Position numbers and translations under genes: made by a program. Positions 1,236 through 50,700 of a DNA stretch of 64,000 nt are shown piece by piece. The notes below the pieces were generated by a model, which saw only the letters and a list, made by a program, of their open reading frames with translations, had not been told where the DNA came from and ran no database searches. Origin of the DNA: an uncultured Ignavibacteriaceae bacterium. GTDB taxonomy: Bacteria > Bacteroidota > Ignavibacteria > UBA10030. Position 1 is the first letter of the stretch; the number at the start of each line of letters is the position of its first letter. The stretch lies in the NCBI GenBank assembly GCA_964651225.1, contig CAZYYD010000011.1, forward strand, positions 25,160 to 89,159, given 5' to 3'.

Positions 1236-1799
1236 ATGAAAGTGTATCTCGATGGTGCACGGCCGCTGGATGAGAACCATCGGCCCGAGGACGGTTGGGT
1301 GAGGGTGGAAAGTGTGCGGGAATCCATTACTCTGCTCAAGACTGGTTTCGTCATAGAGATAAGCATTAATAACGAACTCGGTGATCCATATACAAAGAAC
1401 GAAGGATATCGGATCTTGCGTTGGTTGGAGGAGCAGGTGATGAGGACCAACTTCAATCCGCCGGAGGTCATGAATGTTCATGCTGCCAGCCCAGCACGGA
1501 TGTCCATGATGCTGGAAAAGATTCAATTGATCAAACGAAAGGTGGACGAGCGTACCTGGCGATTCGAGCACCCGATCCATCATGCCATCCTGGGGTATTC
1601 GTGGGAATTTCCTGCTCCCTTTAGTCAACGGCTGCTGAATCGTATTGCACCCGTTTTGAAAAATGAACTTGGGATGAAAGGACTCGAACTTGACTCCGTC
1701 ACCACCGACCCCATCGAGCAAGACGATATCCTGGCAGAGTCCACGAATATGAAAATCGTTCTGAATATTCAAGCGACAACGTTATGCTGCAGACCTTAG
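1236..1799 (+). CDS. Hypothetical protein with N-terminal receiver-like (phage-associated cpREC-type) domain, degenerate acidic pocket
   Basis: 187-aa ORF with RBS aaaggag at 1221-1227, 8 nt before the ATG. The N-terminal ~100 aa follow the remembered pattern MK.YLD..R....GW..V.S..E.I.LL..G....IS...ELG....GY..L.WLEE......PP...VH...P. The usual DHDLG is INNELG here. It overlaps a 201-aa minus-strand ORF that has no recognisable motifs. Confidence 0.5.
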   Translation: MKVYLDGARPLDENHRPEDGWVRVESVRESITLLKTGFVIEISINNELGDPYTKNEGYRILRWLEEQVMRTNFNPPEVMNVHAASPARMSMMLEKIQLIKRKVDERTWRFEHPIHHAILGYSWEFPAPFSQRLLNRIAPVLKNELGMKGLELDSVTTDPIEQDDILAESTNMKIVLNIQATTLCCRP

Positions 1800-6526: not shown

Positions 6527-7693
6527 ATGGTTAGTCCAATAATTGCAATCATGGATATAAAAGATTTCTTCGCCGGAAATTATATACAACAGTATCAATA
6601 CAAAAGCTTCTCACCTTCAAAGATCAACAAGGAGTGGGTGTGGACCGATCCGCAGCTTAACACCCTGCTTTCTGAGGCCAACCTTAAGCTTGGAGCACTG
6701 AACGCATATTCGCTTCAAGTTCCCAATGTAGATCTCTTCAGAGAGATGTACGTTCTGAAGGAGGCCACGACATCAAGCCGTATTGAGGGAACAAGGATAG
6801 AGGTTGAAGAGGCAATACTGAAGGAGAAGGATGTCCGGCCCGAGAAAAAAAACGACTGGCAGGAAGTGCGGAACTATATTGCTGCGATGAATTTTGCGGT
6901 AGAGAAGCTCGTGCAGTTGCCCGTATCGACACGGCTCCTGAAGGAGACCCTTGCGTTTTTACTTCCCGGCTCTTTGGATAGCGAAAGAATTCCCGGGAAA
7001 TACCGGACCAGCCAGAATTGGATCGGAGGGGTCACACTGAAGGATGCAGTCTTCGTGCCTCCGCATCCCGAAGAGGTGAAGGATCTCATGGAGGACCTTG
7101 AACAGTTTCTTCATAATGGAGCCCTTCATGTTCCGCCGTTGATCCGCATCGCACTGGCACATTATCAATTTGAGACCATCCATCCGTTCCTTAATGGAAA
7201 CGGAAGGATGGGGCGGCTCCTTATTACGCTCTATTTGGTCGGGGAGCGTCTGCTGTCGAAACCGACGTTCTATCCGTCTGCGTATCTGGAAAAACACAAA
7301 GGCCTGTATTATGACAATTTAACGACGGCACGAAGATCTAATAATCTGACCCAGTGGGTCAAATATTTCCTTGTGATGATCATCGAGACCTGTGAAGACG
7401 GTGTGAAAACATTCCAGAACATCCTACGGCTGCGCGAGGAGATCGAAGGCCGGCAGATACTTTCTCTCGGAAGAAAGGTCCCGAAAGCGAAAGAATTGAT
7501 GACGCTGTTGTACACAAGTCCCGCGGTCAACGGCGTGGCGGTCTCGAAGGCATTAAAGATCTCCCTCCCGACGGCGAATGCGCTGATAGACGACTTTGTG
7601 GGGCTGGGCATTCTGAAAGAATCAACAGGACTGAAGCGGAACCGGCTCTTTGTGTTTACAGAGTATTTGAATCTTTTTCAGAACAAGGAATAG
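6527..7693 (+). CDS. Fic/DOC family protein with Fic_N region and C-terminal wHTH
   Basis: Fic motif HPFLNGNGRMGR (the HxFx[D/E]GNGRxxR position carries N). N-terminal ..KEATTSSRIEGTRIE.. block. C-terminal wHTH AVSKALKISLPTANALIDDFVGLGILKE. An alternative start is ATG 6551. Confidence 0.85.
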   Translation: MVSPIIAIMDIKDFFAGNYIQQYQYKSFSPSKINKEWVWTDPQLNTLLSEANLKLGALNAYSLQVPNVDLFREMYVLKEATTSSRIEGTRIEVEEAILKEKDVRPEKKNDWQEVRNYIAAMNFAVEKLVQLPVSTRLLKETLAFLLPGSLDSERIPGKYRTSQNWIGGVTLKDAVFVPPHPEEVKDLMEDLEQFLHNGALHVPPLIRIALAHYQFETIHPFLNGNGRMGRLLITLYLVGERLLSKPTFYPSAYLEKHKGLYYDNLTTARRSNNLTQWVKYFLVMIIETCEDGVKTFQNILRLREEIEGRQILSLGRKVPKAKELMTLLYTSPAVNGVAVSKALKISLPTANALIDDFVGLGILKESTGLKRNRLFVFTEYLNLFQNKE

Positions 7694-7780
7694 GAACGAA
7701 GATGTTCCCGGGGTAGGTCAGTTGATGCGTCGGTTTTATCCGACAACAATTTATTCATTTATTGAAAGGAGGGATGGAGT

Positions 7781-8398
7781 ATGGCATTCACGGCATTTGA
7801 AGAACTGAAAATGGAATATCGGGCGCTTCAATTGATTGCAATTCTGGTTGAGTCAAAGCTTAGAAACGAAACCGGCATTTCTGCAGCCCAAATCGTCCAG
7901 GAAATGGAAAAAAGAATAGGAGAAAAATTCTATGGCGACAATATCCATACTTTGATTGAACAAATTGCGGAAACATGGAATTACGGCAACATCAACATTA
8001 CCGTGGAACACATTGAAAGAGCAGGAACGATTCCAGCGGATAGGCGTGTGCCGTTATACAGACTTAGAGATGATTTTACGATTGAGATGTGGAATCAACT
8101 CTTGAGAGTGGCATTCTGTGTAGCCTTCCTCAAGCATGGGTTAATGAAGCCGCTGGAAGCGCAGAACCCGCTCTCTGAGAGAAAAGAAGAAGACTATTTA
8201 CATATGATGAACCTCGTTACAGCATTAGAGAAGAACTCAGAAATACATACAAAGGGCGCGGATACTGGAATTCGAAATCGATTTAAACCTAAGAATATTG
8301 TATTGAAAGTTCCCCCGTTCGTCCAATATGATTCAAGATTTGGGCCTGAAGAAGAACGTTTAGATCTATTGTTAAAAGGGGGCATAGATCTCGTTTAG
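7781..8398 (+). CDS. Hypothetical protein (205 aa), possible N-terminal wHTH
   Basis: RBS-like aaaggaggg lies upstream of the ATG. It sits 88 nt downstream of the Fic gene on the same strand. I recognised no family. Confidence 0.5.
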   Translation: MAFTAFEELKMEYRALQLIAILVESKLRNETGISAAQIVQEMEKRIGEKFYGDNIHTLIEQIAETWNYGNINITVEHIERAGTIPADRRVPLYRLRDDFTIEMWNQLLRVAFCVAFLKHGLMKPLEAQNPLSERKEEDYLHMMNLVTALEKNSEIHTKGADTGIRNRFKPKNIVLKVPPFVQYDSRFGPEEERLDLLLKGGIDLV

Positions 8399-8495
8399 TA
8401 GAATGCGCTCTTCTAACAAACCGTTCTCTTTGACCAAGGCGTACTTATATTGCCAAGTACGCCTTGGTCTTTTCTTGTCAATCCCACCATAATAT

Positions 8496-8514
8496 CTGTA
8501 GGAACTTCCTCTGA
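8496..8514. repeat. Island palindrome copy (ctgtaggaacttcctctga)
   Basis: AGGAACTTCCT core, 160 nt upstream of the Fic remnant start. Confidence 0.65.
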
Positions 8515-8673
8515 GAGGGGCCTATTGGTCTTGCTTAATTTCACAATCCTGAGCATCTTACTCAAGAAGAGATTGGTATGTATCTGATCCATTGTGGCAA
8601 AGGAGGAATTCTCTTATGAATGCACCATTGCATCTCTTTCTAGTTCCATCTACTTGTACTTAACCAATGCTCG

Positions 8674-9083
8674 TTGGACACAATGCCCTTCAAAGCTCAT
8701 GCCCCGTATAATGATCTGCCAAAATTACCTCCAAAGGTAATTCTGGAAACTTCGCGTGTTCTCAAAAAAGTGACGGCTGCCCGGAGTAGCCTTGGAGAAT
8801 TAAAAGGCATAGGAAAACTCTTACCCAGCCAAAGACTCTTGCTGAACACATTGATACTGGAAGAAGCGCGTAACAGCTCCGAGATAGAGAATATCATCAC
8901 TTCTCATGATAGTCTCTATCGGGCGCTTGTATTAGGCTCGAAGAACTTCTTGATCAGCTCGCAAAAACCGGAATTCTGAAGAAGTCTAAGACAGGCAAGG
9001 AGGTTCTTTTTCTCAACAAGAAACTCCTCGATGTATTTTCAAAGAATCCTTATGTCGGTGCTAGAATCCGTGCATTCTACTGA
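8674..9083 (+). pseudogene. Fic family remnant with internal deletion of the catalytic domain
   Basis: Frame A (8674-8979) encodes a Fic_N-type N-terminus (LPKLPPKVILETSRVLKKVTAARSSLGELKG...EEARNSSEIENIITSHDSLYRAL). From about 8937 a different frame encodes the family C-terminal wHTH (LEELLDQLAKTGILKKSKTGKEVLFLNKKLLDVFSK..) up to TGA 9081-9083. The HxFxxGNGR core is absent. Confidence 0.6.
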
Positions 9084-9085
9084 TA

Positions 9086-9162
9086 TGTCGATCGGTTCGA
9101 CACGTTTGCGGCATATGTCGATTGAATCGACACATACATGAAACCTGTCCCACGGCGGGACA
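9086..9162. promoter_or_regulatory. Three phased 17-nt palindromes TGTCNN-N5-NNGACA
   Basis: The three palindromes are tgtcgatcggttcgaca (9086-9102), tgtcgattgaatcgaca (9116-9132) and tgtcccacggcgggaca (9146-9162). Their starts are exactly 30 nt apart and the flanks also match (atatgtcgat...). Confidence 0.55.
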
Positions 9163-9283
9163 CGTTCGAAAAAGATGTGTTCCAGTGCCTTTATCTTCTT
9201 TACTGCTACTGTGTGTAGCGATCAATGCGCCTTTCGCTTGCGTGTGTATATCTTCCTTCTTCCCCCTCCGACCCCGTAAATAT

Positions 9284-9302
9284 CTAGAGGAGTTTCCTAT
9301 AG
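9284..9302. repeat. Island palindrome copy (ctagaggagtttcctatag)
   Basis: Lies about 90 nt upstream of the nuclease operon. It is followed by gaagccgctgcttattgctgactttctc, similar to the tails of the copies at 4900 and 5691. Confidence 0.6.
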
Positions 9303-9390
9303 AAGCCGCTGCTTATTGCTGACTTTCTCGGTCTCATTCAATACCATTAGAGTGTAGACGAAAGAAGTCAAGATGAACAAGGAGCGGGTC

Positions 9391-10233
9391 ATGAAAAAAA
9401 AGAATCCTCAACCGAAAAAATTCAGTTATTATTTCAAGAAAGCGGATGCATTCAACATCCTCTATCCTGTAGAGCATGTGATTGAGATCTCGAACGCATT
9501 CAGACTCATACCCGAAATCATCACGGTCGATCCCCGCCCCGCGGCAGGAGACATCTGGGATATGGGGGAGCGGAAAAACGATCAGGGGGAGATGTGCCGC
9601 GCCTATGTCTTGACGAACCGCGCATTGCAGCGTATTGCCCAGGCCGCCGAGATCACCTTCGATCCACGTCACACGCACCGGACGGATGACGGCAGGAACC
9701 CCCGTCGGGTTGAGTACCAGGCGACAGGCCTGCTTCGCAGGCAGGACGGGCACTGGATGAGCATCACACAGTCAAAGGAAATTGATCTTGACGTGATCGA
9801 GTCAGAGATCAGGACAGAACTCGAGGTGGCTGCGGCCGGCAGCGGTCTCACAATCTCCAGGAACGGCAAGGAGCAGATTCTCAGACCTGACAATCCGGAA
9901 TGCGCCAGAGAAATTGCCCGCCGCATTGCCGTCAGAATGCGGCTGTGGAAAAGGAACAAGGTGACCTTCGCCCTCACCGGTGCCACCAAACGCGTCATTC
10001 GTGCTCTGCTGCTCATCAAGGATTTCTACACGATGGAGGATCTCAAGAAGCCATTTGTCGTTCCCCGCGTCTCTCTCGATATCGACCGTCTTCTGGAAGA
10101 TGGGGAGATCAAGAAGCATTTCACGGCCTCGTTTCTTGAACAGTCCCTGAGCGTCTTCGGTCCGATGTCAGAGCCGGAGCGTTCCCGCGCGGCGATTGGT
10201 CTTGGTGTCCACACGGCGGGAGGGGCTCTATGA
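9391..10233 (+). CDS. Hypothetical protein, candidate Erf/Rad52-like single-strand annealing protein
   Basis: The ORF track gives 9373-10233. The second ATG at 9391 is preceded by aaggag with a 6-nt spacer. The segment FALTGATKRVIRALLLIKDFYTMED resembles the Erf/Rad52-type helix as I recall it from P22 Erf (..QVTGATSSYARKYCLNGLFGIDD). The stop overlaps the next start (ATGA at 10230-10233). Confidence 0.6.
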   Translation: MKKKNPQPKKFSYYFKKADAFNILYPVEHVIEISNAFRLIPEIITVDPRPAAGDIWDMGERKNDQGEMCRAYVLTNRALQRIAQAAEITFDPRHTHRTDDGRNPRRVEYQATGLLRRQDGHWMSITQSKEIDLDVIESEIRTELEVAAAGSGLTISRNGKEQILRPDNPECAREIARRIAVRMRLWKRNKVTFALTGATKRVIRALLLIKDFYTMEDLKKPFVVPRVSLDIDRLLEDGEIKKHFTASFLEQSLSVFGPMSEPERSRAAIGLGVHTAGGAL

Positions 10234-11438
10234 AAATTGTCCATACCGCCGACTGGCACTGGTCGGAACATCGGCTCGATAAATGCCGGCAGAGCGCTGA
10301 GTTCATCCTTGCCCGGCTGGAAGACATTCGGCCCGATCTCCATATCATTGCGGGGGATTACTGGGACAAACGGCAGGTGCTGGCGCGCTCGAGTGCTGCG
10401 CTTCCGGCGATCGAAGCCATGATGCGACTGGCTTCGATCTCGCCGGTGATCGTCATTCTGGGAAATGATGCCCATGATGCGGCTGGAAGTCTGGAGCTCT
10501 TCGGCGATCTTCGAACCGTCTATCCGGTCTATGCTTCGGAGCGTCCGGAAACGATCGCCCTGCGGCTGGGAAAGGATGCGCAGCCATATTTTGAACGCTG
10601 CGCGCCCTTCAGCGATTTGGAAAAAAAATCAGGGGTGCCGCAGGTGCTTGTGCATCTCCTGCCGTATTTCACGAAAAGCCACCTGCTGGCAGAGCGTTCG
10701 GAGATGTCTATCGATGCTTCGAACCTTTACCTCCGGGAATCGCTGAGAAAGATATTCCTGGGCTTTGCGGCTGTCGGAGCCGGCCATGCCTGTCCGCATA
10801 TCCTTGCGGGTCACTGCAGCATCACCGGCGCTCTCATCTCCTCCGGGCAGACGCTGATCGGGCAGGACGTTGAAGTTTCAAAGAATGACCTGGCTCTGGC
10901 ATGCGCTGACTACTATGCTCTCGGCCATATCCATGTGAATCAGGAGATCGCTCCTGGCATGTGGTATGCCGGAAGCACGTATCACAACAATTTCGGAGAG
11001 ACGGAACGGAAGTACTTCAACATCGTGGACTTCGCGCACAAGCGTCTTGCCGTCGAGAGGATCGAAATTCCTTCGCGCCCGCTCTCGCTCCATGAGGTAC
11101 GGCTGGATTCAGCGACTGACACGCTGGTGGATGAGAAAGGAGTCGAGGACTGGTCGGGTGCGGAACTCCGCGTCCGGGTGCATTTGAAAAAGGAACAGGA
11201 ACGATCTGTCGATGACGGTCGGATCCGCCGGAAGTTTCCCGGGGCATGGTCGTACTCGATCGAGCGGATCATCGCTCCCGAGGAGCGGCTTCGTTCGGAG
11301 GGAATCGCGGATGCCCGAAGCCTGAAGGAGAAGCTCCGGGAATGGGCCTTCACGGTCGAACGAGATGTGCCGAACGAGGTCCTGGAGATTGCCGATGAAG
11401 CGGAAGCTGCCGTACGATCCACCATCCAGGAAGGGTAG
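10230..11438 (+). CDS. Mre11/SbcD-like calcineurin-type metallophosphoesterase (nuclease subunit)
   Basis: Ordered phosphoesterase motifs are present: HTADWHW (D-x-H), AGDYWD (GD-x-x-D), GNDAHD (GN-[DH]), AGH and LGHIH (G-H-x-H). At 402 aa it has typical SbcD size. Confidence 0.85.
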   Translation: MKIVHTADWHWSEHRLDKCRQSAEFILARLEDIRPDLHIIAGDYWDKRQVLARSSAALPAIEAMMRLASISPVIVILGNDAHDAAGSLELFGDLRTVYPVYASERPETIALRLGKDAQPYFERCAPFSDLEKKSGVPQVLVHLLPYFTKSHLLAERSEMSIDASNLYLRESLRKIFLGFAAVGAGHACPHILAGHCSITGALISSGQTLIGQDVEVSKNDLALACADYYALGHIHVNQEIAPGMWYAGSTYHNNFGETERKYFNIVDFAHKRLAVERIEIPSRPLSLHEVRLDSATDTLVDEKGVEDWSGAELRVRVHLKKEQERSVDDGRIRRKFPGAWSYSIERIIAPEERLRSEGIADARSLKEKLREWAFTVERDVPNEVLEIADEAEAAVRSTIQEG

Positions 11439-11445
11439 GAAAACA

Positions 11446-13854
11446 ATGAAACCGATATCATTGAAACTGCGCGGAGCTCTTGGGATTCGTGATGGTCTCG
11501 ATCTCGAGGAGATCGAACTTGATCTCACATGCTTTTCGCCGGGACTCATCTGCATTGTCGGACCGAATGGATCGGGGAAAACGACCCTCATGGATAATCT
11601 CCATCCGTTTCTGGAGCTGCCTAGCCGCACGGGGTCGCTCGCGAATCATTTCTTCCTGCGCGACAGCATGCGTGAATTCGTCTTTGCGCTCGGCGGGAGA
11701 ACCTATCGTTCCTGCGTCCTGATCGATGCACAGACCAGGAAGACCGAGGCCTATCTCTACCAGGGCGATACTGTGATGAATGACGGCCGCATCTCATCGT
11801 ACAACGCGAAGGTCGAACAGCTCGTCGGATCATCCGCCCTGTTCTTCAAGAGCATCTTCGCCGCGCAGGGAGCAAGCGGGATTACGCGCATGACGAGCGC
11901 CGAGCGCAAGGAACTGTTCTTTGAGCTCTTGGATCTTCAGATCTATGAGGCCTATGTCCAGTATGCGGGAGGTAAAATCGCAGAGATGGAGAAAGAGTAT
12001 GCCGCCTCCAGAGCCGTTGCCGAACGGGGAAGGAAGGAATTGGACGAGCGCGCACATGTTGAGTCAGAACTGGCGTTCTCGAAGAAGGAAATGGAGAACT
12101 TGACCTCGCTCCTTGCTATGAAGACCGTAGCGGTAAAAGAAATCGAAGCACGGGTACGCGGCATTCAGCGGGAGCTTGAGGAGCAGAACCGCCGGAGGCA
12201 GGAACACGCCCAGCTGAAGACAGAGATCGCCGCCCTGGAAAAGAAGCTCGATCAAGCCTCGGCGCACCACGCCTCGGAAATAAAAGAGCTCACGGATAAA
12301 CAGACCGAAGGTCAGCGGGAGATCACGCGGCTCAGAGGAATCCTCGGGCGCAGCGTTGAGATCAGGAGCCATGTTGAGCATCTGTGCAAATTACGCCTCC
12401 GTCAGGATGAGCTCGCGCAGATGGAAAAAGAGTTTATCGCATGGCAGCAAAGAGAGAGCGAACGGAAATTGAAGATCCAGCAGCAATTGCATCAGCGCAC
12501 GATGGAGCTCGGAGGCCTGAAGCAGGAGGAGGCAAAACTCTTATCAGAAGCACAGCGCCTGAGATCTGCTGCGGAGAGAGAGACGGCCCTGGTCTCCCGC
12601 CGTCTGGCTGATGTGCGAGCGGTGGCCGCCCCTGTGAATGCGGTTCCATGCCGGGAGAGAGAAGGGCTCTTCACCGCCTGCACCCTGCTGCTCAACGCAC
12701 GAAAGGCGCTCGACGACATTCCAGCTCTTGAGGAGAAACTCAGGTCTCTTGAATCACAGGAGTACTATGAAAGCATCGGCGGAGGAGAGGTTAACGCGAA
12801 GCTCAGCGCTCTGCGAGAGACCCAACGGAGATTGACCGAGAGTGTGACTGTTGATGAATCTCTGACGAAGCAAGGGACATCTCTTCCCCCGGTGGGTTAT
12901 GATACAACCATCCACCAGGAGGTGAGAGACAGGATCAAAAAGCTTGAGGCTGATCATTGGGAACAGCTCGCTGTTGAATTGCAGGTAGCCGGTTCGGTCC
13001 TGAAGGAAAAAGAAAACCAGCAGCAAAGCCTCTCTGCTCAAAGAATCGAAAGAGAAACAAGAGGCAACATTCTTCTCGGGGAAATCAAGGCTCAGATCGC
13101 CGAGAAGCGTGACCGGTGCCGGGAGGCGGAGGATTCGAGGGATTACGCACGGCTTGCAGAGCAGTGCAGCAGGGAACTGAAGGAGGCGGAGCGGTCTCTC
13201 GTCGAGCTCCGGAAGCAGGAACTCGGACTCCACGCATGCATTGCTTCAGCAGAGGCTACACTGCAGCGCTTGGAGAAGCTTCAGGAAGAGGTCTCCGGGA
13301 ATGAAGCTAACATCCGAACGCTCATGAAGAGTCTTGAAGAGTGGAAGTTCTTTCAGCGCGCCTGTTCCAAGGAGGGCATTCCCGCCCTGGAATTGGATGC
13401 CGCCGGCCCAGCCGTGAGCCGCATCGCCAATGATCTTCTCGCTTCCTCGTTCGGTGTCCGGTTCCAGATCGCCTTTGAGACCACCCGGCTCTCGAAGGAC
13501 GGGAAGAAGCAGTTGGAGACCTTTGACATCCGGATCATGGGCGAGGCAGGCGAAAAACATATTGAGGATCTCAGCGGGGGAGAACAGGTGTGGATCGAGC
13601 GGGCGATCTCCGAAGCGATCGCCATCTATCTCTCCCGGAAATCGGGGAAGGAATACCTCACCACGTTCCAGGATGAGTCCGACGGGGCTCTCGATCCGGA
13701 GAACAAGCAGAACTACCTTCGGATGCTGCAGGAATCCTTCCGCCTCGGACGCAGAGCGTTTACCTTTGTCATCACGCAGAGTCCCGAGATCTGGCAGCAG
13801 GTCGAGCAGCGGATCCACCTCTCCCGGGAGTCATCGATGGAACTTGTATACTAG
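11446..13854 (+). CDS. Rad50/SbcC/T4 gp46-like SMC-type ATPase (802 aa)
   Basis: ATG 11446 follows agga, 7 nt after the upstream stop. Walker A is GPNGSGKTT. The central region is long, heptad-rich and K/E/R/Q/L-rich. The signature motif is LSGGEQ and Walker B/D-loop is TTFQDESDGALD. Confidence 0.85.
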   Translation: MKPISLKLRGALGIRDGLDLEEIELDLTCFSPGLICIVGPNGSGKTTLMDNLHPFLELPSRTGSLANHFFLRDSMREFVFALGGRTYRSCVLIDAQTRKTEAYLYQGDTVMNDGRISSYNAKVEQLVGSSALFFKSIFAAQGASGITRMTSAERKELFFELLDLQIYEAYVQYAGGKIAEMEKEYAASRAVAERGRKELDERAHVESELAFSKKEMENLTSLLAMKTVAVKEIEARVRGIQRELEEQNRRRQEHAQLKTEIAALEKKLDQASAHHASEIKELTDKQTEGQREITRLRGILGRSVEIRSHVEHLCKLRLRQDELAQMEKEFIAWQQRESERKLKIQQQLHQRTMELGGLKQEEAKLLSEAQRLRSAAERETALVSRRLADVRAVAAPVNAVPCREREGLFTACTLLLNARKALDDIPALEEKLRSLESQEYYESIGGGEVNAKLSALRETQRRLTESVTVDESLTKQGTSLPPVGYDTTIHQEVRDRIKKLEADHWEQLAVELQVAGSVLKEKENQQQSLSAQRIERETRGNILLGEIKAQIAEKRDRCREAEDSRDYARLAEQCSRELKEAERSLVELRKQELGLHACIASAEATLQRLEKLQEEVSGNEANIRTLMKSLEEWKFFQRACSKEGIPALELDAAGPAVSRIANDLLASSFGVRFQIAFETTRLSKDGKKQLETFDIRIMGEAGEKHIEDLSGGEQVWIERAISEAIAIYLSRKSGKEYLTTFQDESDGALDPENKQNYLRMLQESFRLGRRAFTFVITQSPEIWQQVEQRIHLSRESSMELVY

Positions 13855-13864
13855 GAGAGAGTCT

Positions 13865-14260
13865 ATGAAACAGAACGAAGAACTCATTGCAGAGCTCGAC
13901 GCCCTTCGGGCGATCCATGGCGAGAGCGCATTTGAACGTGCAGTCCAGATGATACGGTGCCGCAAGCTGACACTGTTCTCCCGGCCGCCGCGGAAGAAAT
14001 TCCCCTGGGCGAAATACCGGAAGCTCTATCAGCTGCAGCAGGGAATGTGCCCCTACTGCAATACGCCGCTCTTTCTGAAGAAGGGGGAGGTCGAGATCGA
14101 TCACCGGGACCCCAACCGTCCGGACTTTAATGCGGAAACCAACCTGCAGCTTCTGCACAAGCGCTGCAACCGGAAGAAGTCCGCCCGCTCGATTCCCGCA
14201 GAGGCAAAATCACACAATACGACATACATCCATCTGCTCACGGGGAAGGGTGACACATGA
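13865..14260 (+). CDS. HNH endonuclease (131 aa)
   Basis: ATG 13865 follows aggagag. The HNH layout is CPYCNTPL...EIDHRDP...NLQLLHKRCNRKK (C-x-x-C ... D-H ... N ... H-x-x-C-N). Confidence 0.8.
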   Translation: MKQNEELIAELDALRAIHGESAFERAVQMIRCRKLTLFSRPPRKKFPWAKYRKLYQLQQGMCPYCNTPLFLKKGEVEIDHRDPNRPDFNAETNLQLLHKRCNRKKSARSIPAEAKSHNTTYIHLLTGKGDT

Positions 14261-14353
14261 TCGAATGGAGAAGGAATACGTCTTTTCGACCGCCATCTTA
14301 GAGGAATTTGCTTATTATATACAAAAGTATATATTTATATACAATAGTATATA
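14231..14353 (+). repeat. Direct repeat DR1 (3' end of HNH gene plus operator pair)
   Basis: catctgctcacggggaagggtgacacatgatcgaatggagaaggaa...tatatacaaaagtatata.. aligns with 16515-16637 (catctgctcatggggaagggtgattcgtgatcgaatggaggaggaa...tatatacaaaagtatata..). Confidence 0.75.
14316..14353. promoter_or_regulatory. Two tandem inverted repeats TATATAC-N4-GTATATA (candidate operators)
   Basis: The repeats are tatatacaaaagtatata (14316-14333) and tatatacaatagtatata (14336-14353). Their starts are 20 nt apart and they lie 42 nt upstream of the wHTH-NTase gene. The same pair recurs at 16600-16637. Confidence 0.55.
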
Positions 14354-14394
14354 ATGACGTTCGTTCTAAGAACATATCCTGAAAGGATCTTCCG

Positions 14395-15006
14395 ATGGTC
14401 ATTTATCGTGTACTCGATGAAGTGTTTCGGTCCTGGTCTAGTACGGCGGTGTTACGTGCACTGCTGGATACAACAACGGGTTGTACGGGGAATGAAACAG
14501 CCCGCCGTTCCGGGATGCATCCGAGGTCGGCTCTCAAAGCGCTAACCTCGCTTGAAGAACTCGGCCTTGTTCGTCGCCAGCGCGGAGGAAGGGACCATCT
14601 CTTTACCCTCAATCGCAGTCATTATTTGGTCCAGAATGTTGTGGAACGAATATTTATGGCAGAACAGAACTATTATAATGAAATCATCGAGATGCTGGCA
14701 TCTCTCTTGGACCGCTCTGTGCTCAATGCTACTATATTTGGAAGTGTTGCCAAGCACACTGCAACACGGCTGTCTGATCTTGATCTTTGCTGTATTGTAA
14801 AAACAGAAAAACTCAAAGACTCCCCGCGCATTCTTCTGAATACCGAGGCTCAAAAGCTCTACCAGTCATTTGGTATTAAGGTTGCTCCCATTGTCTTCAC
14901 GCTCGAGGAAGCAAAGAAAAAATCTAAGTCGATGCTCGTCCGGGATATGCTTGACCATGGGATATTCGTTACGGGCAGGAAAATGAAAGATCTTCTCAAT
15001 GACTAG
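14395..15006 (+). CDS. wHTH (MarR/ArsR-like) fused to a minimal nucleotidyltransferase domain
   Basis: N-terminal wHTH VLRALLDTTTGCTGNETARRSGMHPRSALKALTSLEELGLVRRQRGGRDHLF. NTase motif IFGSVAKHTATRLSDLDLCCIV (G-S-x9-12-D-x-D). Confidence 0.75.
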   Translation: MVIYRVLDEVFRSWSSTAVLRALLDTTTGCTGNETARRSGMHPRSALKALTSLEELGLVRRQRGGRDHLFTLNRSHYLVQNVVERIFMAEQNYYNEIIEMLASLLDRSVLNATIFGSVAKHTATRLSDLDLCCIVKTEKLKDSPRILLNTEAQKLYQSFGIKVAPIVFTLEEAKKKSKSMLVRDMLDHGIFVTGRKMKDLLND

Positions 15007-15109
15007 ACAGCTATGAATATTGCATCTGTTCCAATCTGCGCTTTGACTGATGACAAATCATTAAAATAATAAACTGAGAATTATATCTCTGAACTGCCCG
15101 CGATAAGTT

Positions 15110-16330
15110 TTACATCATCCCCACCGGCACCGCCTGTACGGACTCCGTAATCGGCAGCCGCTGCGAAACAAGTGACACGACACAGCCAGGTCCGATAGGC
15201 AACTTTAACGTGTCCAGCGCTCTGAAATGACGAACCGCATCTTTTCCCGGGTTGGTAGACTTCTTGATCTCTATCGGATAGATAATCCCGTCTTGATGGA
15301 TCAGCAGATCAACTTCTTTAGTGTCTTTATCGCGATAATAATAGAGAGATGCTCTTTTACCGTTGTGCCACCAGCTTTTTATGACTTCGGAAACAATCCA
15401 TGTTTCGAGAAGCGCCCCGGACATCGCTCCCGCTTCCAGTGTTGCAGCGCTCGACCATTCGGTCAACCAGGCGGCGAGGCCGGTATCGAGAAAATAGAGC
15501 TTGGGTGTTTTCACCAGTCTTTTTGTAACATTCGTATGATACGGTTCGAGAAGATATGCAATGCCGGAGTTCTCGAGGATGGAAAGCCATCTTTTCCCGG
15601 TTGCCTGATTGATATTGCTGTCACGGCAAAGGTCTTGCATATTCAGCATTTGACCTGTGCGGGCTGCGCTTGCCCGAAGAAATCGCAGGAAGGCACTTTC
15701 GTTACCCACATTGGCAAGATCCCGTACATCCCGTTGCAGATATGTTTGCACATAGGAACTGTAAAAAAGATACCGATCTGTAAAAGTCTTCTGATAGAGA
15801 GAGGGGAATGATCCAAGCCAGATTTTCTTGTAAAGAGTGGCAAGCGTGAGTGTTTTTGACTTTTCCCGCGAACGAAGAAGTGCTGGGGTCGGCAGAAATG
15901 GTCCGGCCGATGCATTGTTTCCCAATTCACGTTGTGAAAAACCGAGTAGTCGAACAACTGCAACCCGGCCGGCAAGAGTTTCAGAAATCCCTTTCATCAG
16001 ATGAAACTGTTGAGAACCGGTCAGCCAAAACCGACCTGCGGTTCGATCGCTGTCAACGGACATTTTGATATAGGAAAGAAGTTCAGGTGCATAGTGGATC
16101 TCATCGATCAGCAACGGCGTAGGAAATCGCTGGAGGAACAACGCTGGATCCGTTTTCGCCAGTGAACGGATCATGGGATCATCCAACGTGACATACGTTC
16201 TCCCTTTTTCTGCGAGATGTCGTAGAAAAGTAGTCTTCCCGATCTGCCGTGGTCCAGTCACCAGCATCACGGGAAATTGCCGAGAAGCCGACTGAAAATA
16301 CTTCTCGAGAGTTCTTGCTCTGTATTTCAT
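15110..16330 (-). CDS. AAA+ ATPase of the AAA_14/DUF4143 type
   Basis: Walker A VTGPRQIGKTT, Walker B LLIDEIHY, and the typical 400-aa architecture with a C-terminal DUF4143-like region (..YYYRDKDTKEVDLLI..). Confidence 0.85.
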   Translation of the reverse strand: MKYRARTLEKYFQSASRQFPVMLVTGPRQIGKTTFLRHLAEKGRTYVTLDDPMIRSLAKTDPALFLQRFPTPLLIDEIHYAPELLSYIKMSVDSDRTAGRFWLTGSQQFHLMKGISETLAGRVAVVRLLGFSQRELGNNASAGPFLPTPALLRSREKSKTLTLATLYKKIWLGSFPSLYQKTFTDRYLFYSSYVQTYLQRDVRDLANVGNESAFLRFLRASAARTGQMLNMQDLCRDSNINQATGKRWLSILENSGIAYLLEPYHTNVTKRLVKTPKLYFLDTGLAAWLTEWSSAATLEAGAMSGALLETWIVSEVIKSWWHNGKRASLYYYRDKDTKEVDLLIHQDGIIYPIEIKKSTNPGKDAVRHFRALDTLKLPIGPGCVVSLVSQRLPITESVQAVPVGMM

Positions 16331-47743: not shown

Positions 47744-50700
47744 ATGATGGGAAAACTTATGCTACAATCCGATTCAGACCCGTTCAATTCCAATAACTAT
47801 TTCCAGTCTGTTAAGACGCCGGGCAACCTTGTCAAAGTTTACCTGGGTCAACCTAAGAGAACTTTGACAAGGTTCTCTTGGTCACCATCCGAAGTCAACC
47901 ATTCCCACCACTTAAGCGACTTACCTCGCTCCACTCGTCAGAGCGGGTCGGAGAGGTTTGCATTACTCCTTTTGCTCCTCCTCTTGTTCTCAGGTGTTGC
48001 TCTTGGTCAAATTCCCACAATCACAGACTTCAATCCTAAATCAGGTCCGGTCGGCACAATAGTTACTATTTCAGGTACCAACTTTGATCCGATAAATACC
48101 AATAATGTTGTTTACTTTGGGGCCGTCAAAGGGAGCGTGACCTCGGGAACCAGCACCGGTCTTACAGTCACAGTACCGTCGGGGGCGACTTTCGAACCAA
48201 TCACTGTAACGAATATAATCACAGGTTTGACTGCATATTCAGCAAAGCCGTTTGCAATTATGTTTCCGAGCATCGGGATACTCGATGCCGGTTCGTTCTC
48301 TCCCAAGCTGGATTTTGGAGCTGCCAATTCTCCTCATGATATCAAAATGGGAGATATCGACGGGGACGGCAAGTCCGACCTCGCTCTAGCATGTTCAGGG
48401 AGCAACGCTGTTTCAGTCGTGCGGAACACGAGCAGCGATGGGATATTATCCTTCGCTGCCAATGCGGATTTCGCTGCAATGGCCTCTCCGCAAGGGGTCG
48501 CCATCAGTGACATTGACGGAGACGGCAAGCTGGATCTGGCGGTGGTGAACTGGAATGGAGCTTCGGTATCCCTATTTCGAAGCTTGAGCTCTCCCGGGAC
48601 TATTTCATTTGCCGGAAGGATTGATAGTAGCACAGTCGGCAGACCAGAACGAATCGCTGTAGGTGATTTGGACCGTGACGGAAAACCGGATCTGGTTATC
48701 GGTAACGGAAACGGCCAATTGTCCATTTTCCGCAACACCAGCAGTGTTGGGAATATTTCCTTTGCTGTAAGGATCGACATACCCATAACGAACGGACCGA
48801 CCGATGTTGCCGTAGCTGATATTGATGGTGATGGGAATCCGGATATCATTGAAACCAACTACGGAAGCAATACCGTTGCTGTCTTGCGGAATATCAGCAC
48901 GTTGGGAAATCTCTCATTTGAGTCCCCTGTAAGTTTTGTCACTGCAGGTTATCCAGGAAAGGTCGCAGTCACAGATCTCGACGGCGACGATAAGAACGAT
49001 ATTGCCGTGAGCACACAATTGGGGAAGATCTCCATTCTACGCAATACGTCGAGCGGCACGACGATTTCGTTCGCTGCGAAGACGGATATCACTACCACTA
49101 GCGAACCGCATGCAATTGCCGCGGGAGATTTGGATGGGGATGGAAAACCCGACATCGTTATCACGTTTGCCGGTGATGTCAGTACGATCGTTGCTTACTT
49201 GAATTCATGTACTCCGGGGAATATTTCGTTCAAGTCACCGGCCAATTACATAGGCGGCTGGTGGGAGGATGCCGTTGCCATCGGCGACCTTAATGGAGAT
49301 GGAAAACCGGACATAGCCGCAGCAAATATGGGCGGAAACAACGGATCAGCTCTTCGGAACCGGATACCAGTTGATAATCAGCACGCCGGTCTCGTCGCGT
49401 TCTATCCCTTCTCCGGCAATACAGCCGACAGCTCCGGTGACGGCAACCACGGGACCAACAATGGCGCAACACTCACCGCAGATCGGTTTGCGAAGCCGGC
49501 TATGGCATACGACTTCGATGGAACGAGTGCTAGCATAACATGCGGCAATCCTGCATCATTGAATATCAATTCTGCGATCTCCATGAGTGCGTGGATCAGA
49601 CCGCGCTCGTTAGCGACTAGCAGAATCGTTTCCAAAGGGGGCGCAAACGCCGGATACGAATTGCTTGTGAGCAATCCCAATGTTGTTCTTGCGTTGAATC
49701 AGAATAACCTCAGCACTGTTGACATATCCTCATATCTCAATCAGTGGCTATACATTGTCGGTACATGGGATGGATCGGCGACAAGAATCTATGTCAATGG
49801 TGTTTTACGATCAACCGTTGCGTATGCAACGCAGATCGTTAATTCCTCAAACGAACTTGTCATCGGGCAGGATGCCTCGCTCTCGCCGGAATATTTTAAT
49901 GGTGCCATCGACGATATTCGGATATACAATCGCGCACTTCGTTCAGGAGAAATTGATACACTCTATCATGCAGGAGGGTGGGCGCTTCCTCCACCAACAA
50001 TTACCGACTTCTCACCCAAATCGGGTTCCGCTGGGACAACAATAACCATCACTGGCACGAACTTTAATCCAATATCGATACAGAATGTCGTTTATTTCGG
50101 CGCTGTCAAGGGGAGTGTGACATCAGGAACAAGCACAGGAATTACTGTTACGGTTCCAACCGGTGCCACATATGCTCCGATCACGGTGACGGATACGACG
50201 ACGAAGCTGACAGCTTTCTCGACAAAACCGTTTATACCTAAATTCACTTCTATTCAGCAAATTGATTCGACTTCATTTGCCGCTAAAATGGATTTTGGAT
50301 TGGCAAACGGTACTTATGATGTCGCTTTTGGTGATATCAATGGAGATGGAAAACCAGAACTCTTAACAACAAATTTCGGAAACGCCACATTCTCGGTTCT
50401 CACAAATACGAGTAGCGGCAACTCTCTTTCCTTCGCGGCGGGAGCAAATTTCCCTTCGGCTGGAAATCCACAGTGTGTAACACTCGGTGATATCGATGGT
50501 GATGGAAATTTGGATGTAATCACCGCAAATTACGGTGTCTCCATATCGCGAAATACGACAACAACTGTCACCCCATCGTTCGCTGCTAAATTGGATCTGA
50601 CCGGGGGAAGCAACGCAACCAGTGTCGCGATTGGCGATATTGATGGAGATGGCAGACCAGATCTGGCTGTGGGTAACTATACTTCTGCTGATGTGGTTTC

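What the first reader, a model, noticed from the sequence alone, without database searches (positions are those of the whole stretch)
9373..14260. Orphan four-gene nuclease operon (Erf/Rad52-like candidate + Mre11/SbcD-like + Rad50/SbcC-gp46-like + HNH) embedded in a TA/defence island
Four + strand genes are packed for coupled translation: an ATGA start/stop overlap at 10230-10233, then 7-nt and 10-nt gaps, each followed by an AGGA-type RBS. The middle two genes carry complete Mre11/SbcD phosphoesterase motifs and Rad50/SbcC-type Walker A, coiled-coil, signature and Walker B features. The ATPase is short (802 aa), closer to phage gp46-type than to cellular SbcC (>1000 aa). The last gene is a clear HNH nuclease. 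The first has only one recognisable segment (LTGATKRVIRALLLIKDFYTMED), which resembles the Erf/Rad52 annealing-protein helix. No capsid, terminase, integrase or replication genes occur anywhere in the 64 kb. The neighbours on both sides are AbiE-like, Fic, HTH-NTase, DUF4143 ATPase and HipBA genes, a typical defence-island context. ATPase+HNH is the logic of Septu (PtuAB), but I know of no named system that adds an Mre11-like subunit and an SSAP-like protein. The operon could be (a) an undescribed anti-phage or anti-plasmid nuclease system, or (b) a stranded phage recombination module.
Basis: partly seen in the sequence, partly recalled or inferred. Interest (0 to 1): 0.78.

Follow-up and report, generated by a model that had tools for sequence, protein, structure and literature searches.

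The report
Phage-derived annealase–SbcCD–HNH gene cassette
The four genes are a real, rare, horizontally transferred cassette that descends from a recombination module common in temperate phages, with an added HNH nuclease and no phage around it; whether it now serves defence or recombination has not been tested.

Summary
Four + strand genes are packed exactly as described: X 9391-10233, SbcD-like 10230-11438, SbcC/Rad50-like 11446-13854 and HNH 13865-14260. Catalytic motifs are intact. The genes form a sharp 56% GC island in a 44-45% GC chromosome.

The same four-gene order recurs in every sufficiently long related locus, about 15 independent loci from Ignavibacteriales or Bacteroidota MAGs and metagenomes. 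It forms three clades that are congruent across X, SbcD and SbcC. None of these loci has phage structural genes nearby. All lie among toxin-antitoxin genes. PADLOC gives no system match.

The cassette is not an orphan. X belongs to a large uncharacterised family (phrog_13782, no Pfam, about 1,900 clusters at 50% identity). In IMG/VR viral contigs an X homolog is followed by SbcD and SbcC in 33 of 33 informative loci. In the annotated example it sits between the integrase/CI genes and the replisome-organizer/DnaC genes, which is the recombination slot of temperate phages.

The fold of X points weakly but consistently to Rad52/Redβ/Erf annealases. The cassette lineage lost X's C-terminal tail and gained a co-inherited HNH.

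Verdict: a new variant of a phage annealase-plus-nuclease recombination module. A defence role is possible (about 0.3) but unshown. Interest is moderate.

The parts
9038..9067 (+). Promoter-like site (TTCAAA, 18-nt spacer, TG-TAGAAT) upstream of the cassette.
   Evidence: This is a consensus scan only. It is a weak inference.
9086..9162 (.). Three 17-bp palindromes at 30-bp phasing, a possible operator array between the Fic remnant and gene X. They are TGTCGAtcggtTCGACA, TGTCGAttgaaTCGACA and TGTCCCacggcGGGACA.
   Evidence: Seen in the sequence and as repeat family D6. The two perfect sites are the only perfect matches in the 64 kb. The regulator is unknown, and the sites are not conserved in relatives.
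9391..10233 (+). Gene X, 280 aa (an alternative ATG at 9373 would give 286 aa). It is a short-form member of the uncharacterised phrog_13782 family and a probable Rad52/Redβ-type ssDNA-annealing or ssDNA-binding protein.
   Evidence: phrog_13782 at 2e-24, with no Pfam, NCBIfam or PADLOC hit. The AF2 model has pLDDT 83.5. RAD52 is the top Foldseek hit in the PDB, and Bet/Rad52/Erf are the top hits in BFVD. The family always lies next to SbcCD.
10230..11438 (+). SbcD/Mre11-like metallophosphoesterase nuclease, 402 aa. Its start overlaps the X stop codon (ATGA).
   Evidence: Metallophos is above its cut-off, sbcd TIGR00619 scores 1e-13 and phrog_100 scores 5e-15. Phosphoesterase motifs are invariant in 11 loci.
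11446..13854 (+). SbcC/Rad50-like ABC ATPase with a coiled coil, 802 aa. It has Walker A GPNGSGKT, the signature LSGGE and Walker B ..FQDE. The coiled-coil apex carries an invariant C-x9-C instead of CxxC.
   Evidence: phrog_77 at 1.5e-44 and Rad50 PRK03918 at 1e-17. Conservation is shown.
13865..14260 (+). HNH endonuclease, 131 aa, with a conserved about 55-aa helical N-terminal extension. It is an integral, co-inherited fourth component.
   Evidence: PF01844 is above its cut-off. The gene is present, with conserved motifs, in all 11 loci examined that extend past the end of SbcC. Its clades largely match those of the other three genes.
9450..14260 (.). GC island of about 56-57% in a chromosome of 44-47% GC. 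It marks recent horizontal acquisition of exactly these four genes.
   Evidence: Composition profiles. Core 56.4% against flanks of 43.8% and 45.1%.

Best explanation
This is a self-contained four-gene DNA-break-processing and recombination cassette of phage origin.

**Origin (shown).** X, SbcD and SbcC are descendants of a three-gene module that temperate phages carry in their recombination slot, between the lysogeny-control genes and the replication genes. The lineage in this window has shortened X by removing its C-terminal tail. It has acquired a dedicated HNH nuclease. It now moves between FCB-group bacteria as a 4.9-kb unit that lands in toxin-antitoxin-rich islands. In some genomes it has a CI/LexA-type S24 repressor in front, in others an AAA ATPase plus a cREC receiver, and here neither.

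**Mechanism (inferred from family knowledge).**
1. The SbcC dimer clamps DNA ends or hairpins in an ATP-dependent way.
2. It licenses SbcD to cut and resect.
3. The HNH subunit supplies an extra nick or double-strand cut that creates or enlarges the entry site.
4. X, translationally coupled to SbcD, coats the exposed single strand and anneals it to a complementary strand, as Redβ does after λ Exo.

**Role (undecided).** The evidence does not settle whether this activity serves recombination and repair of the host or a mobile element, or destruction of invading DNA.
For: **Shown in the sequence and by comparison.**
- Operon structure and intact catalytic motifs.
- The order X-SbcD-SbcC-HNH is kept in every related locus long enough to show it.
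- The X, SbcD and SbcC similarity matrices give the same three clades, and the HNH matrix largely agrees, so the genes are inherited as a unit.
- The GC island shows transfer of exactly these genes.

**Phage ancestry.**
- The X family has 1,906 representative clusters at E<=1e-3, and 42 of 42 sampled members hit phrog_13782.
- In 36 IMG/VR loci, all 33 with downstream sequence have SbcD and SbcC (often fused, about 1,281 aa) right after X.
- The annotated example reads integrase, CI-like repressor..., X, small ORF, SbcD-SbcC, DnaD-like replisome organizer, DnaC-like loader.
- In one phage an OB-fold SSB follows SbcC.
- The nearest long-form relative, P0018, lies in a contig of about 56 kb that looks like a phage genome.
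- The S24 repressor of type-A cassette loci resembles the repressor that sits upstream of X in phage contig L032.

**X as an ssDNA protein.**
- Foldseek top hits are RAD52 (probability 0.91) and Bet/Rad52/Erf-annotated viral proteins (probability 1.0).
- At least 22 of 163 family members end in the SSB tail motif DDDIPF.
- hhalign pairs the conserved helix of X with Redβ 143-176, the segment holding Redβ's W..HP..M...KA......R......G.Y..DE pattern as read from the alignment.
Against: - No biochemical or genetic data exist for any member.
- The annealase assignment is not statistically secure. The best Foldseek E-values are 2e-3 and 8e-3, and TM-scores are at most 0.47. A trimmed core model scored worse (E 0.085). 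No Pfam SSAP family is hit by 42 members. hhalign against a Redβ profile gives a probability of 0.3.
- The cassette lineage itself was not found in IMG/VR, in GenBank phages or in plasmids. Its flanks lack phage hallmark genes. A plain 'phage recombination' role therefore has no phage to serve here.
- The role of HNH is pure inference.
- Island context and variable regulatory front-ends are what one also sees for defence systems.
Confidence: 0.55

Rival explanations
1. The cassette is a previously undescribed anti-phage or anti-plasmid system recruited from phage recombination genes. The SbcCD-like clamp senses foreign DNA ends, hairpins or replication intermediates. X senses or holds ssDNA. 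HNH, with SbcD, is the effector that destroys the invader or the host chromosome.
For: - Every cassette locus lies among toxin-antitoxin or defence-type genes: AbiE, Fic/Doc, HipA, BrnT, HicAB, RelB/YafQ, MazE, DUF4143 and cREC.
- No phage structural genes are listed in a PHROGs census of 137 flanking ORFs.
- The cassette is patchy and rare and shows clear horizontal transfer.
- One MAG holds two divergent copies.
- The front-ends are interchangeable: an S24 repressor, which could make it SOS-inducible, or AAA plus a cREC receiver.
- There are precedents for Rad50/SMC-like ATPases with nuclease effectors, namely Lamassu and Septu (PMC12663957, PMC10586767).
Against: - The evidence is neighbourhood only, and these genomes are very rich in TA genes.
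- No PADLOC model matches at system level.
- The homologous triad has a clear non-defence role by position in phages.
- No sensor or abortive-infection toxin is evident beyond the nucleases.
Confidence: 0.3
2. The cassette is the recombination and replication-restart module of a small integrated mobile element, such as a satellite or a cryptic prophage core. The other genes of that element (CI-like repressor, terminase-large-like ATPase, unknown proteins) are present in type-A loci and have been lost in this window.
For: - Type-A loci carry, directly upstream, a divergent S24 CI/LexA-like repressor with a conserved promoter-operator region. They also carry a 299-aa unknown protein and a protein of about 740 aa with weak terminase-large similarity: phrog_17415 at 3.8e-5 and a precomputed PF27249 hit.
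- The repressor resembles one in a phage contig that carries X.
- HNH nucleases next to terminases assist cos cleavage in HK97-like phages (my own knowledge).
Against: - No integrase, capsid, portal or att repeats were found.
- The upstream sets are swapped between clades, so they are not a fixed element. L023 has a clade-B core with a type-A front-end.
- The window and L026 have the four genes only.
- The terminase similarity is weak, and no PDB relative was found by sequence.
Confidence: 0.12
3. The genes are a decaying, functionless remnant of a prophage.
For: The ancestry is phage. A pseudogenised Fic gene lies next door.
Against: - All four ORFs are intact, with invariant catalytic residues, in about 15 loci that have diverged to 41-75% identity in three clades.
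- Translational coupling is preserved.
- Only L006 shows a truncated X gene call.
Confidence: 0.03

Closest known systems
Phage SSAP-plus-exonuclease recombination modules (λ Red Exo/Bet, Rac RecE/RecT)
   Same: An annealase-like protein is encoded next to, and translationally coupled with, a nuclease that resects DNA ends. In phage relatives the module occupies the same genome slot, between immunity and replication genes.
   Different: The nuclease partner is an ATP-driven SbcCD/Mre11-Rad50-type complex, not a λ Exo/RecE-type exonuclease. X has no detectable sequence relation to RecT/Redβ, Erf or Sak Pfam families. An HNH gene is added. The cassette lies outside any phage.
Phage SbcCD homologs (T4 gp46/gp47, T5 D12/D13; PHROGs 77 and 100)
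   Same: A short Rad50-like ATPase of about 800 aa pairs with an Mre11-like phosphoesterase. The best profile matches are phrog_77 (1.5e-44) and phrog_100.
   Different: Those work with RecA-like (UvsX) or other partners in virulent phages. Here the complex is paired with X and HNH, and the coiled-coil apex has C-x9-C rather than CxxC.
Septu (PtuA ABC ATPase + PtuB HNH)
   Same: It follows the same logic of an ABC ATPase plus an HNH nuclease encoded side by side.
   Different: PtuA and PtuB models score only about 20 bits. Septu has no Mre11-like or annealase-like subunit, and the cassette ATPase is Rad50/SbcC-type with a long coiled coil.
Lamassu (LmuB SMC/Rad50-like + LmuC + LmuA effector)
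   Same: A Rad50-related coiled-coil ATPase is thought to sense DNA ends and control a nuclease (PMC12663957).
   Different: LmuB models score at most 19 bits, and there is no LmuA or LmuC. An SbcD partner is retained here.
Staphylococcal phage Sak(DUF1071)-SSB-HNHc_6-rep modules
   Same: An SSAP and an HNH nuclease co-occur in a recombination module (PMC8093625).
   Different: The SSAP family and the HNH family are both different, those modules have no SbcCD, and they lie inside phage genomes.
Cellular SbcCD (E. coli)
   Same: Same superfamilies and motif sets.
   Different: The cassette proteins fall far below the equivalog cut-offs: sbcc 39.7 against 478.5 bits, sbcd 51.5 against 77.65 bits. 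The ATPase is about 250 aa shorter.

Membership tests
SbcD/Mre11 calcineurin-like phosphoesterases (superfamily) | A Metallophos domain above the Pfam gathering score, with the phosphoesterase motifs D-x-H, GD, GN(H/D), H and GH-x-H. | tested here: met
   PF00149 scores 34.8 bits against a cut-off of 21.5. The motifs are present and invariant in 11 loci.
Cellular SbcD / SbcC equivalogs (NCBIfam TIGR00619, TIGR00618, PRK10966) | A score above the curated cut-off. | tested here: not met
   The scores are 51.5 against 77.65 bits, 39.7 against 478.5 bits and 53.3 against 450 bits.
Phage SbcC-like / SbcD-like (phrog_77 / phrog_100) | A significant full-length profile match. | tested here: met
   phrog_77 scores 1.5e-44 over residues 1-791. 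phrog_100 scores 4.6e-15, with its best stretch covering only residues 141-285.
Rad50/SbcC zinc hook | A CxxC motif at the coiled-coil apex. | tested here: not met
   There is no CxxC. An invariant C-x9-C lies at residues 402/412. Whether it binds zinc was not testable.
HNH endonucleases (PF01844) | An HNH domain above the gathering score, with the Cys-pair, D-H, N and HxxC residues. | tested here: met
   The score is 30.6 bits against a cut-off of 21.4. The motifs CPxC...EIDHxDPN...NLQLxHxxCN are conserved in all 11 cassette HNH proteins examined.
Rad52/Redβ/Erf SSAP superfamily | Sequence-profile membership (Pfam RecT, ERF, Rad52_Rad22, DUF1071). | tested here: not met
   None of 42 family members hits any SSAP Pfam family at E<=1. 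hhalign against a Redβ profile gives a probability of 0.3.
Rad52/Redβ/Erf SSAP superfamily | The Rad52-type fold: a β-hairpin and sheet packed on a long helix. | tested here: inconclusive
   Top Foldseek hits are RAD52 (E 8e-3, probability 0.91) and Bet/Rad52/Erf (E 2e-3, probability 1.0), but TM-scores are 0.2-0.47 and no hit has E<=1e-3. The trimmed core still finds RAD52 first, at E 0.085.
Rad52/Redβ/Erf SSAP superfamily | ssDNA binding, annealing activity and ring or filament oligomers. | not testable with these tools
   This needs biochemistry or an oligomer structure prediction.
Septu (PtuAB) | PtuA and PtuB profile matches at family level in a two-gene architecture. | tested here: not met
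   The best PtuA hit is 8.5e-5 (20 bits) and the best PtuB hit is 8.3e-5 (20 bits). The architecture has four genes.
Lamassu | LmuB together with LmuC and an LmuA effector. | tested here: not met
   LmuB scores 7e-5 (19 bits) on the P-loop only, and there are no LmuA or LmuC hits.
MADS (mad1-8) | Multiple mad components, including a methyltransferase. | tested here: not met
   Only partial mad3 (45 bits) and mad8 (26 bits) hits on the ATPase. No other component is present.
Temperate-phage X-SbcCD recombination module (phrog_13782 + phrog_100 + phrog_77) | An X homolog immediately upstream of SbcD and SbcC on the same strand. | tested here: met
   The window shows this arrangement, as do 33 of 33 informative viral loci.
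Temperate-phage X-SbcCD recombination module (phrog_13782 + phrog_100 + phrog_77) | Location inside a phage genome next to lysogeny and replication genes. | tested here: not met
   None were found in the window or listed in the census of the flanks of 9 cassette loci. The cassette lineage is absent from IMG/VR and GenBank phages.

The most novel reading that the evidence does not exclude
Two novel readings remain open.

- **Domesticated immune nuclease.** The short-X + SbcD + SbcC + HNH cassette could be a new class of defence system, built from a phage's own recombination machinery. It would be a Mre11-Rad50-type end sensor with an annealase-derived ssDNA subunit and an HNH effector. In different genomes it would be regulated by an SOS-cleavable repressor or by an AAA/cREC signalling pair.
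- **New recombinase family.** Independently, phrog_13782 would be a new, very large annealase family. Its obligate partner would be an SbcCD-type nuclease rather than a λ Exo/RecE-type exonuclease, making it a third architecture of phage recombination system with possible use in recombineering.
Probability: 0.3. Interest if true: 0.75.

Novelty: new variant of a known kind. Interest (0 to 1): 0.5.

Why it matters
- **If X is an annealase.** Temperate phages would then widely use an SSAP paired with a Mre11-Rad50-type nuclease. I found this pairing in neither Pfam, PHROGs annotations nor the SSAP surveys I read (PMC2896510, PMC8093625). That would add a large family (about 1,900 clusters at 50% identity) to the recombinase repertoire and to the pool of recombineering candidates.
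- **The cassette lineage.** It shows a phage recombination module being cut down to four genes, given an HNH nuclease and spread among bacterial TA/defence islands. This is a concrete case for asking how DNA-repair machinery becomes either immunity or a selfish cassette, a question already raised for Lamassu and Rad50 (PMC12663957).
- **If it is only a recombination module.** The finding is then ordinary apart from the uncharacterised family.

Tried and rejected
**Searches of annotated collections.**
- tblastn of X and of two long-form homologs against GenBank phages gave no match.
- Megablast of the operon and tblastn of X against PLSDB plasmids gave no match.
- Single-protein scans of IMG/VR with P0070 and P0020 found nothing, because exact-word patterns are too strict. 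The 42-sequence alignment was too diverse to scan with. A 19-sequence sub-alignment worked.

**Attempts to place X by sequence or structure.**
- A profile of X against PDB sequences gave only a chance FtsH hit at E 0.73.
- hhalign of the X family against λ Bet alone, and against a 22-sequence Bet profile, gave a probability of 0.3. This is not significant, although the aligned helix is the expected one.
- A model of the trimmed core of X (residues 78-240), meant to sharpen Foldseek, gave weaker E-values.

**Attempts to find cassette boundaries or an empty site.**
- Exact-protein look-ups of both flanking genes returned only contigs that carry the cassette or break inside it.
- No direct repeats or att-like sites flank the cassette.

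**Other checks.**
- Rfam on 7500-15500 found nothing at E<=0.1.
- An apparent X-SbcD fusion in L065 turned out to be a high-GC read-through ORF artefact of my own ORF caller.
- The 740-aa type-A protein has no PDB sequence relative, and the name MJ0330 does not occur in the literature library.
- Leptospira phage LE1 gp76 may be a very distant X homolog, but hhalign gives a probability of only 6%.

**Readings rejected.** I rejected Septu, Lamassu and MADS membership, and the dead-remnant reading. The reasons are in the membership test and the rival explanations.


Full report
**1. The observation**

The four + strand ORFs are present.
- an ATGA stop/start overlap at 10230-10233;
- a 7-nt gap before ATG 11446;
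- a 10-nt gap before ATG 13865;
- a purine-rich Shine-Dalgarno sequence before each start.

For the first gene, ATG 9391 is the better start. AAGGAG lies 6 nt upstream, it matches the public gene call P0001 (280 aa), and it matches homolog N-termini.

Profile searches confirm the middle and last genes. The second gene is an Mre11/SbcD-type metallophosphoesterase. The third is an 802-aa Rad50/SbcC-type ABC ATPase whose best match is the phage family phrog_77 (1.5e-44), far better than cellular sbcC (39.7 bits against a cut-off of 478.5). The fourth is a PF01844 HNH nuclease. The first protein hits nothing in Pfam, NCBIfam or PADLOC. It does hit phrog_13782, 'unknown function', at 2e-24.

The four genes coincide with a sharply bounded GC island: 56.4% against 43.8% and 45.1% in the flanks. 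The neighbours are AbiEi/AbiEii, Fic, a Fic remnant, an HTH-nucleotidyltransferase, a DUF4143 ATPase and HipA/HTH. The rest of the window encodes T9SS-sorted β-helix proteins, a CHASE2 cyclase and a 4,441-aa protein. That is a chromosome of an FCB-group bacterium, with no phage genes among the ORFs I annotated.

**2. The block is a conserved unit**

A search of 5.8 billion proteins found only 15 close relatives of X. A scan of 185,579 species genomes found three loci: one in an Ignavibacteriales MAG and two in one Bacteroidota MAG. JGI metagenomes gave 16 loci.

In every locus long enough to show it, the order X, SbcD (about 400 aa), SbcC (about 802 aa), HNH (about 130 aa) is kept. Identity to the window is 41-62% for X, 50-64% for SbcD, 42-47% for SbcC and 43-75% for HNH.

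Pairwise identity matrices for X, SbcD and SbcC give the same three clades, and the HNH matrix largely agrees. Catalytic motifs are invariant. The genes are therefore under selection and inherited together. HNH is an integral subunit, not a sporadic homing gene.

In the other loci the cassette GC (52-56%) is close to that of its flanks (50-54%). In the window it is about 12 points higher. This argues for recent import of exactly these four genes from such a donor. I found no flanking repeats and no empty-site allele.

**3. Surroundings of the cassette**

A PHROGs census of 137 flanking ORFs from nine loci listed no capsid, portal, tail, terminase or integrase family. The commonest family was a transcriptional repressor, with eight members. 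The census output shows only the 25 commonest of 42 matched families. Flanks are dominated by toxin-antitoxin and related genes: Fic/Doc, MazE, BrnT, HicAB, RelB/YafQ, AbiE, HigB-like, DUF4143 and HipA.

Directly upstream there are three arrangements:
- **Type A.** A protein of about 740 aa with weak terminase-large similarity, a small ORF, a 299-aa unknown protein and a divergent S24 CI/LexA-type repressor. The promoter-operator and leader region is conserved.
- **Type B.** An AAA ATPase, a cREC receiver-domain protein and a 189-aa unknown protein on the same strand.
- **Type C.** Nothing. This is the arrangement in the window and in its closest relative L026.

L023 combines a clade-B core with a type-A front-end, so the front-ends are exchangeable.

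**4. Where the genes come from**

A sensitive profile search shows that X belongs to a large family. There are 1,906 representative clusters at E<=1e-3, and typical members are 350-400 aa. All 42 sampled members hit phrog_13782 and none hits any Pfam family for that region.

A scan of IMG/VR with a sub-alignment recovered 36 viral loci. In all 33 that extend downstream, X is followed within one small ORF by SbcD-like and SbcC-like genes, often fused into a protein of about 1,281 aa.

Gene clustering and PHROGs annotation show the context. The annotated example reads integrase, CI-like repressor, small early genes, X, small ORF, SbcD-SbcC, DnaD-like replisome organizer, DnaC-like loader. That is the recombination slot of temperate phages. 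In one phage an OB-fold SSB ending in DDDVPF follows SbcC.

The closest long-form relative of the window's X (P0018) sits in a contig of about 56 kb that looks like a phage genome. There the order is X, SbcD, a small ORF, SbcC, a small ORF, then an HNH_3-type nuclease.

The S24 repressor of type-A loci resembles the repressor upstream of X in phage contig L032. The best GenBank phage match to the ATPase is Leptospira phage LE1. Its layout is CI(-) ... hypothetical gp76, metallophosphoesterase, SMC ATPase, ParB, helicase, which is similar. The relation of gp76 to X is only hinted at.

The cassette HNH family was not detected in the 36 viral loci.

**5. What X is**

The AlphaFold2 model is confident (pLDDT 83.5, pTM 0.73). 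Against the PDB the best match is human RAD52, which takes most of the top 11 places (E 8e-3, probability 0.91). Against BFVD the best matches are annotated Bet, Rad52 homolog, phage recombination protein and Erf (E 2e-3 to 2e-2, probabilities up to 1.0).

TM-scores are low (0.2-0.47) and no E-value reaches 1e-3. A trimmed core model still finds RAD52 first, but only at E 0.085. hhalign against Redβ is not significant. It does align the most conserved helix of X (W..NK...A.TGA..RVIR.LL....Y..E[ED]L) with Redβ 143-176 (W..HP..M...KA......R......G.Y..DE).

Independent hints point to ssDNA biology:
- X holds a fixed place beside a resecting nuclease and, at times, an SSB.
- X and SbcD are translationally coupled.
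- At least 22 of 163 family members end in the SSB C-terminal tip motif (DDDIPF or EDLPF).

The cassette lineage lacks that tail. I rate 'Rad52-superfamily annealase or ssDNA-binding protein' at roughly 0.6.

**6. Mechanism**

These things are shown: the gene content, the coupling, the co-inheritance, the phage ancestry and the horizontal mobility.

The rest is inferred from what is established for SbcCD/Mre11-Rad50 and for λ Red-type systems. An ATP-driven clamp on DNA ends or hairpins licenses the phosphoesterase to cut and resect. HNH adds a nick or break. X loads on the exposed strand and anneals it.

The biological purpose is open. I give about 0.55 to a recombination and break-processing machine of phage origin whose beneficiary is undecided. 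I give about 0.3 to the specific claim that it has become a defence system, about 0.12 to it being part of a small mobile element, and about 0.03 to a dead remnant.

**7. Comparison with known systems**

It works most like λ Red or RecET, an annealase plus a resection nuclease, but with a T4 gp46/47-type nuclease in place of the exonuclease. It shares the ABC-ATPase-plus-HNH logic of Septu and the Rad50-like sensor logic of Lamassu. It fails their membership tests.

Literature searches found no description of an SSAP-SbcD-SbcC-HNH system. Known partial parallels are Sak-SSB-HNH-rep modules and sak4 with sbcC in Firmicutes phages.

**8. Verdict**

It should be re-labelled as a rare, mobile, HNH-augmented offshoot of a widespread but uncharacterised temperate-phage recombination module, not an orphan system. 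Novelty is 'new variant of a known kind'. Interest is moderate (0.5). The score is carried mainly by the size and anonymity of the X family and by the clean example of a phage recombination module moving into defence islands.

Noticed in passing
window 9086-9162 (with a promoter-like site at 9038-9067): Three 17-bp palindromes lie at exact 30-bp spacing: TGTCGAtcggtTCGACA, TGTCGAttgaaTCGACA and TGTCCCacggcGGGACA. They sit between the Fic remnant and gene X. The two perfect sites are unique in the 64 kb. This looks like an operator array, but no regulator was identified and the sites are not conserved in related loci.
   Followed up: partly
window 8674-9082: A Fic gene remnant. A Fic_N segment lies in one frame, and a C-terminal winged-helix-like tail (LEELLDQLAKTGILKKSKTGKEVLFLNKKLLDVFSK) lies in another. 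The central Fic domain is missing. A perfect 15-bp stem terminator lies just upstream at 8432-8469.
   Followed up: partly
window 14314-14355: Two adjacent TATATAC-N3/4-GTATATA palindromes lie in the AT-rich spacer in front of the HTH-nucleotidyltransferase gene (14395-15006). They are probably its operator.
   Followed up: no
window 1236-1799; L007 3255-3584, L009 8904-9221, L016 1357-1824: A cREC_REC (PF20274) receiver-domain protein is encoded 8 kb upstream of the cassette in the window. A shorter protein with the same domain, preceded by an AAA ATPase, sits upstream of the cassette in type-B loci, separated from X only by a 189-aa unknown ORF.
   Followed up: partly
L001 9738-10000, L002 6382-6627, L012 3466-3710, L017 9789-10000, L023 9801-10000: Type-A loci share a conserved 5' region between the S24 repressor and X. 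It holds a TTGACA/TATTATATT promoter bracketed by a TACTC...GAGTA inverted repeat and an AAATATgcGAAAAT..TCAATTCCAA box. A variable GC-rich stretch plus a T-run follows, and then an invariant TTTTTCGCGGAACGAAC box about 55 nt before the start codon. This could be an operator plus an attenuator or leader. It is absent from the window.
   Followed up: partly
proteins P0024, P0026, P0077, P0078, P0093-P0097, P0104 and others (long-form X homologs): At least 22 of 163 family members end in the bacterial SSB C-terminal tip motif (DDDIPF, DDDVPF or EDLPF). Others end in Cys-rich zinc-ribbon-like tails. The cassette lineage has neither.
   Followed up: partly
window 12649-12681 (SbcC-like residues 402-412): The coiled-coil apex carries an invariant C-x9-C pair instead of the canonical Rad50/SbcC CxxC zinc hook.
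   Followed up: no
L002/L008 (JBEKOB010000081.1) and L009 (JBEKOB010000082.1): One Bacteroidota MAG (SPRUCE 430) carries two divergent cassettes, 43-51% identical in X, SbcD and SbcC. One has the S24-repressor front-end and the other has the AAA/cREC front-end. A binning error cannot be excluded.
   Followed up: partly
L001 5511-7697, L012 3-1640, L023 5568-7823 (fragmented in L006 5448-7397): A protein of about 740 aa recurs upstream of type-A cassettes. It has Walker-type motifs, a precomputed PF27249 (MJ0330_N) hit and weak similarity to terminase large subunits (phrog_17415, 3.8e-5). It is followed by a conserved 299-aa coiled-coil protein of unknown function.
   Followed up: partly
L086 (Leptospira phage LE1, NC_048892.1 60507-72687): LE1 encodes a hypothetical protein (gp76, 317 aa) whose stop overlaps the start of a metallophosphoesterase-SMC ATPase pair, downstream of a divergent CI repressor. 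This is the same layout as the X-SbcCD module. gp76 aligns to the X profile over 196 columns, but without significance.
   Followed up: partly
window 47744-61069: A single 4,441-aa ORF. It was not analysed.
   Followed up: no
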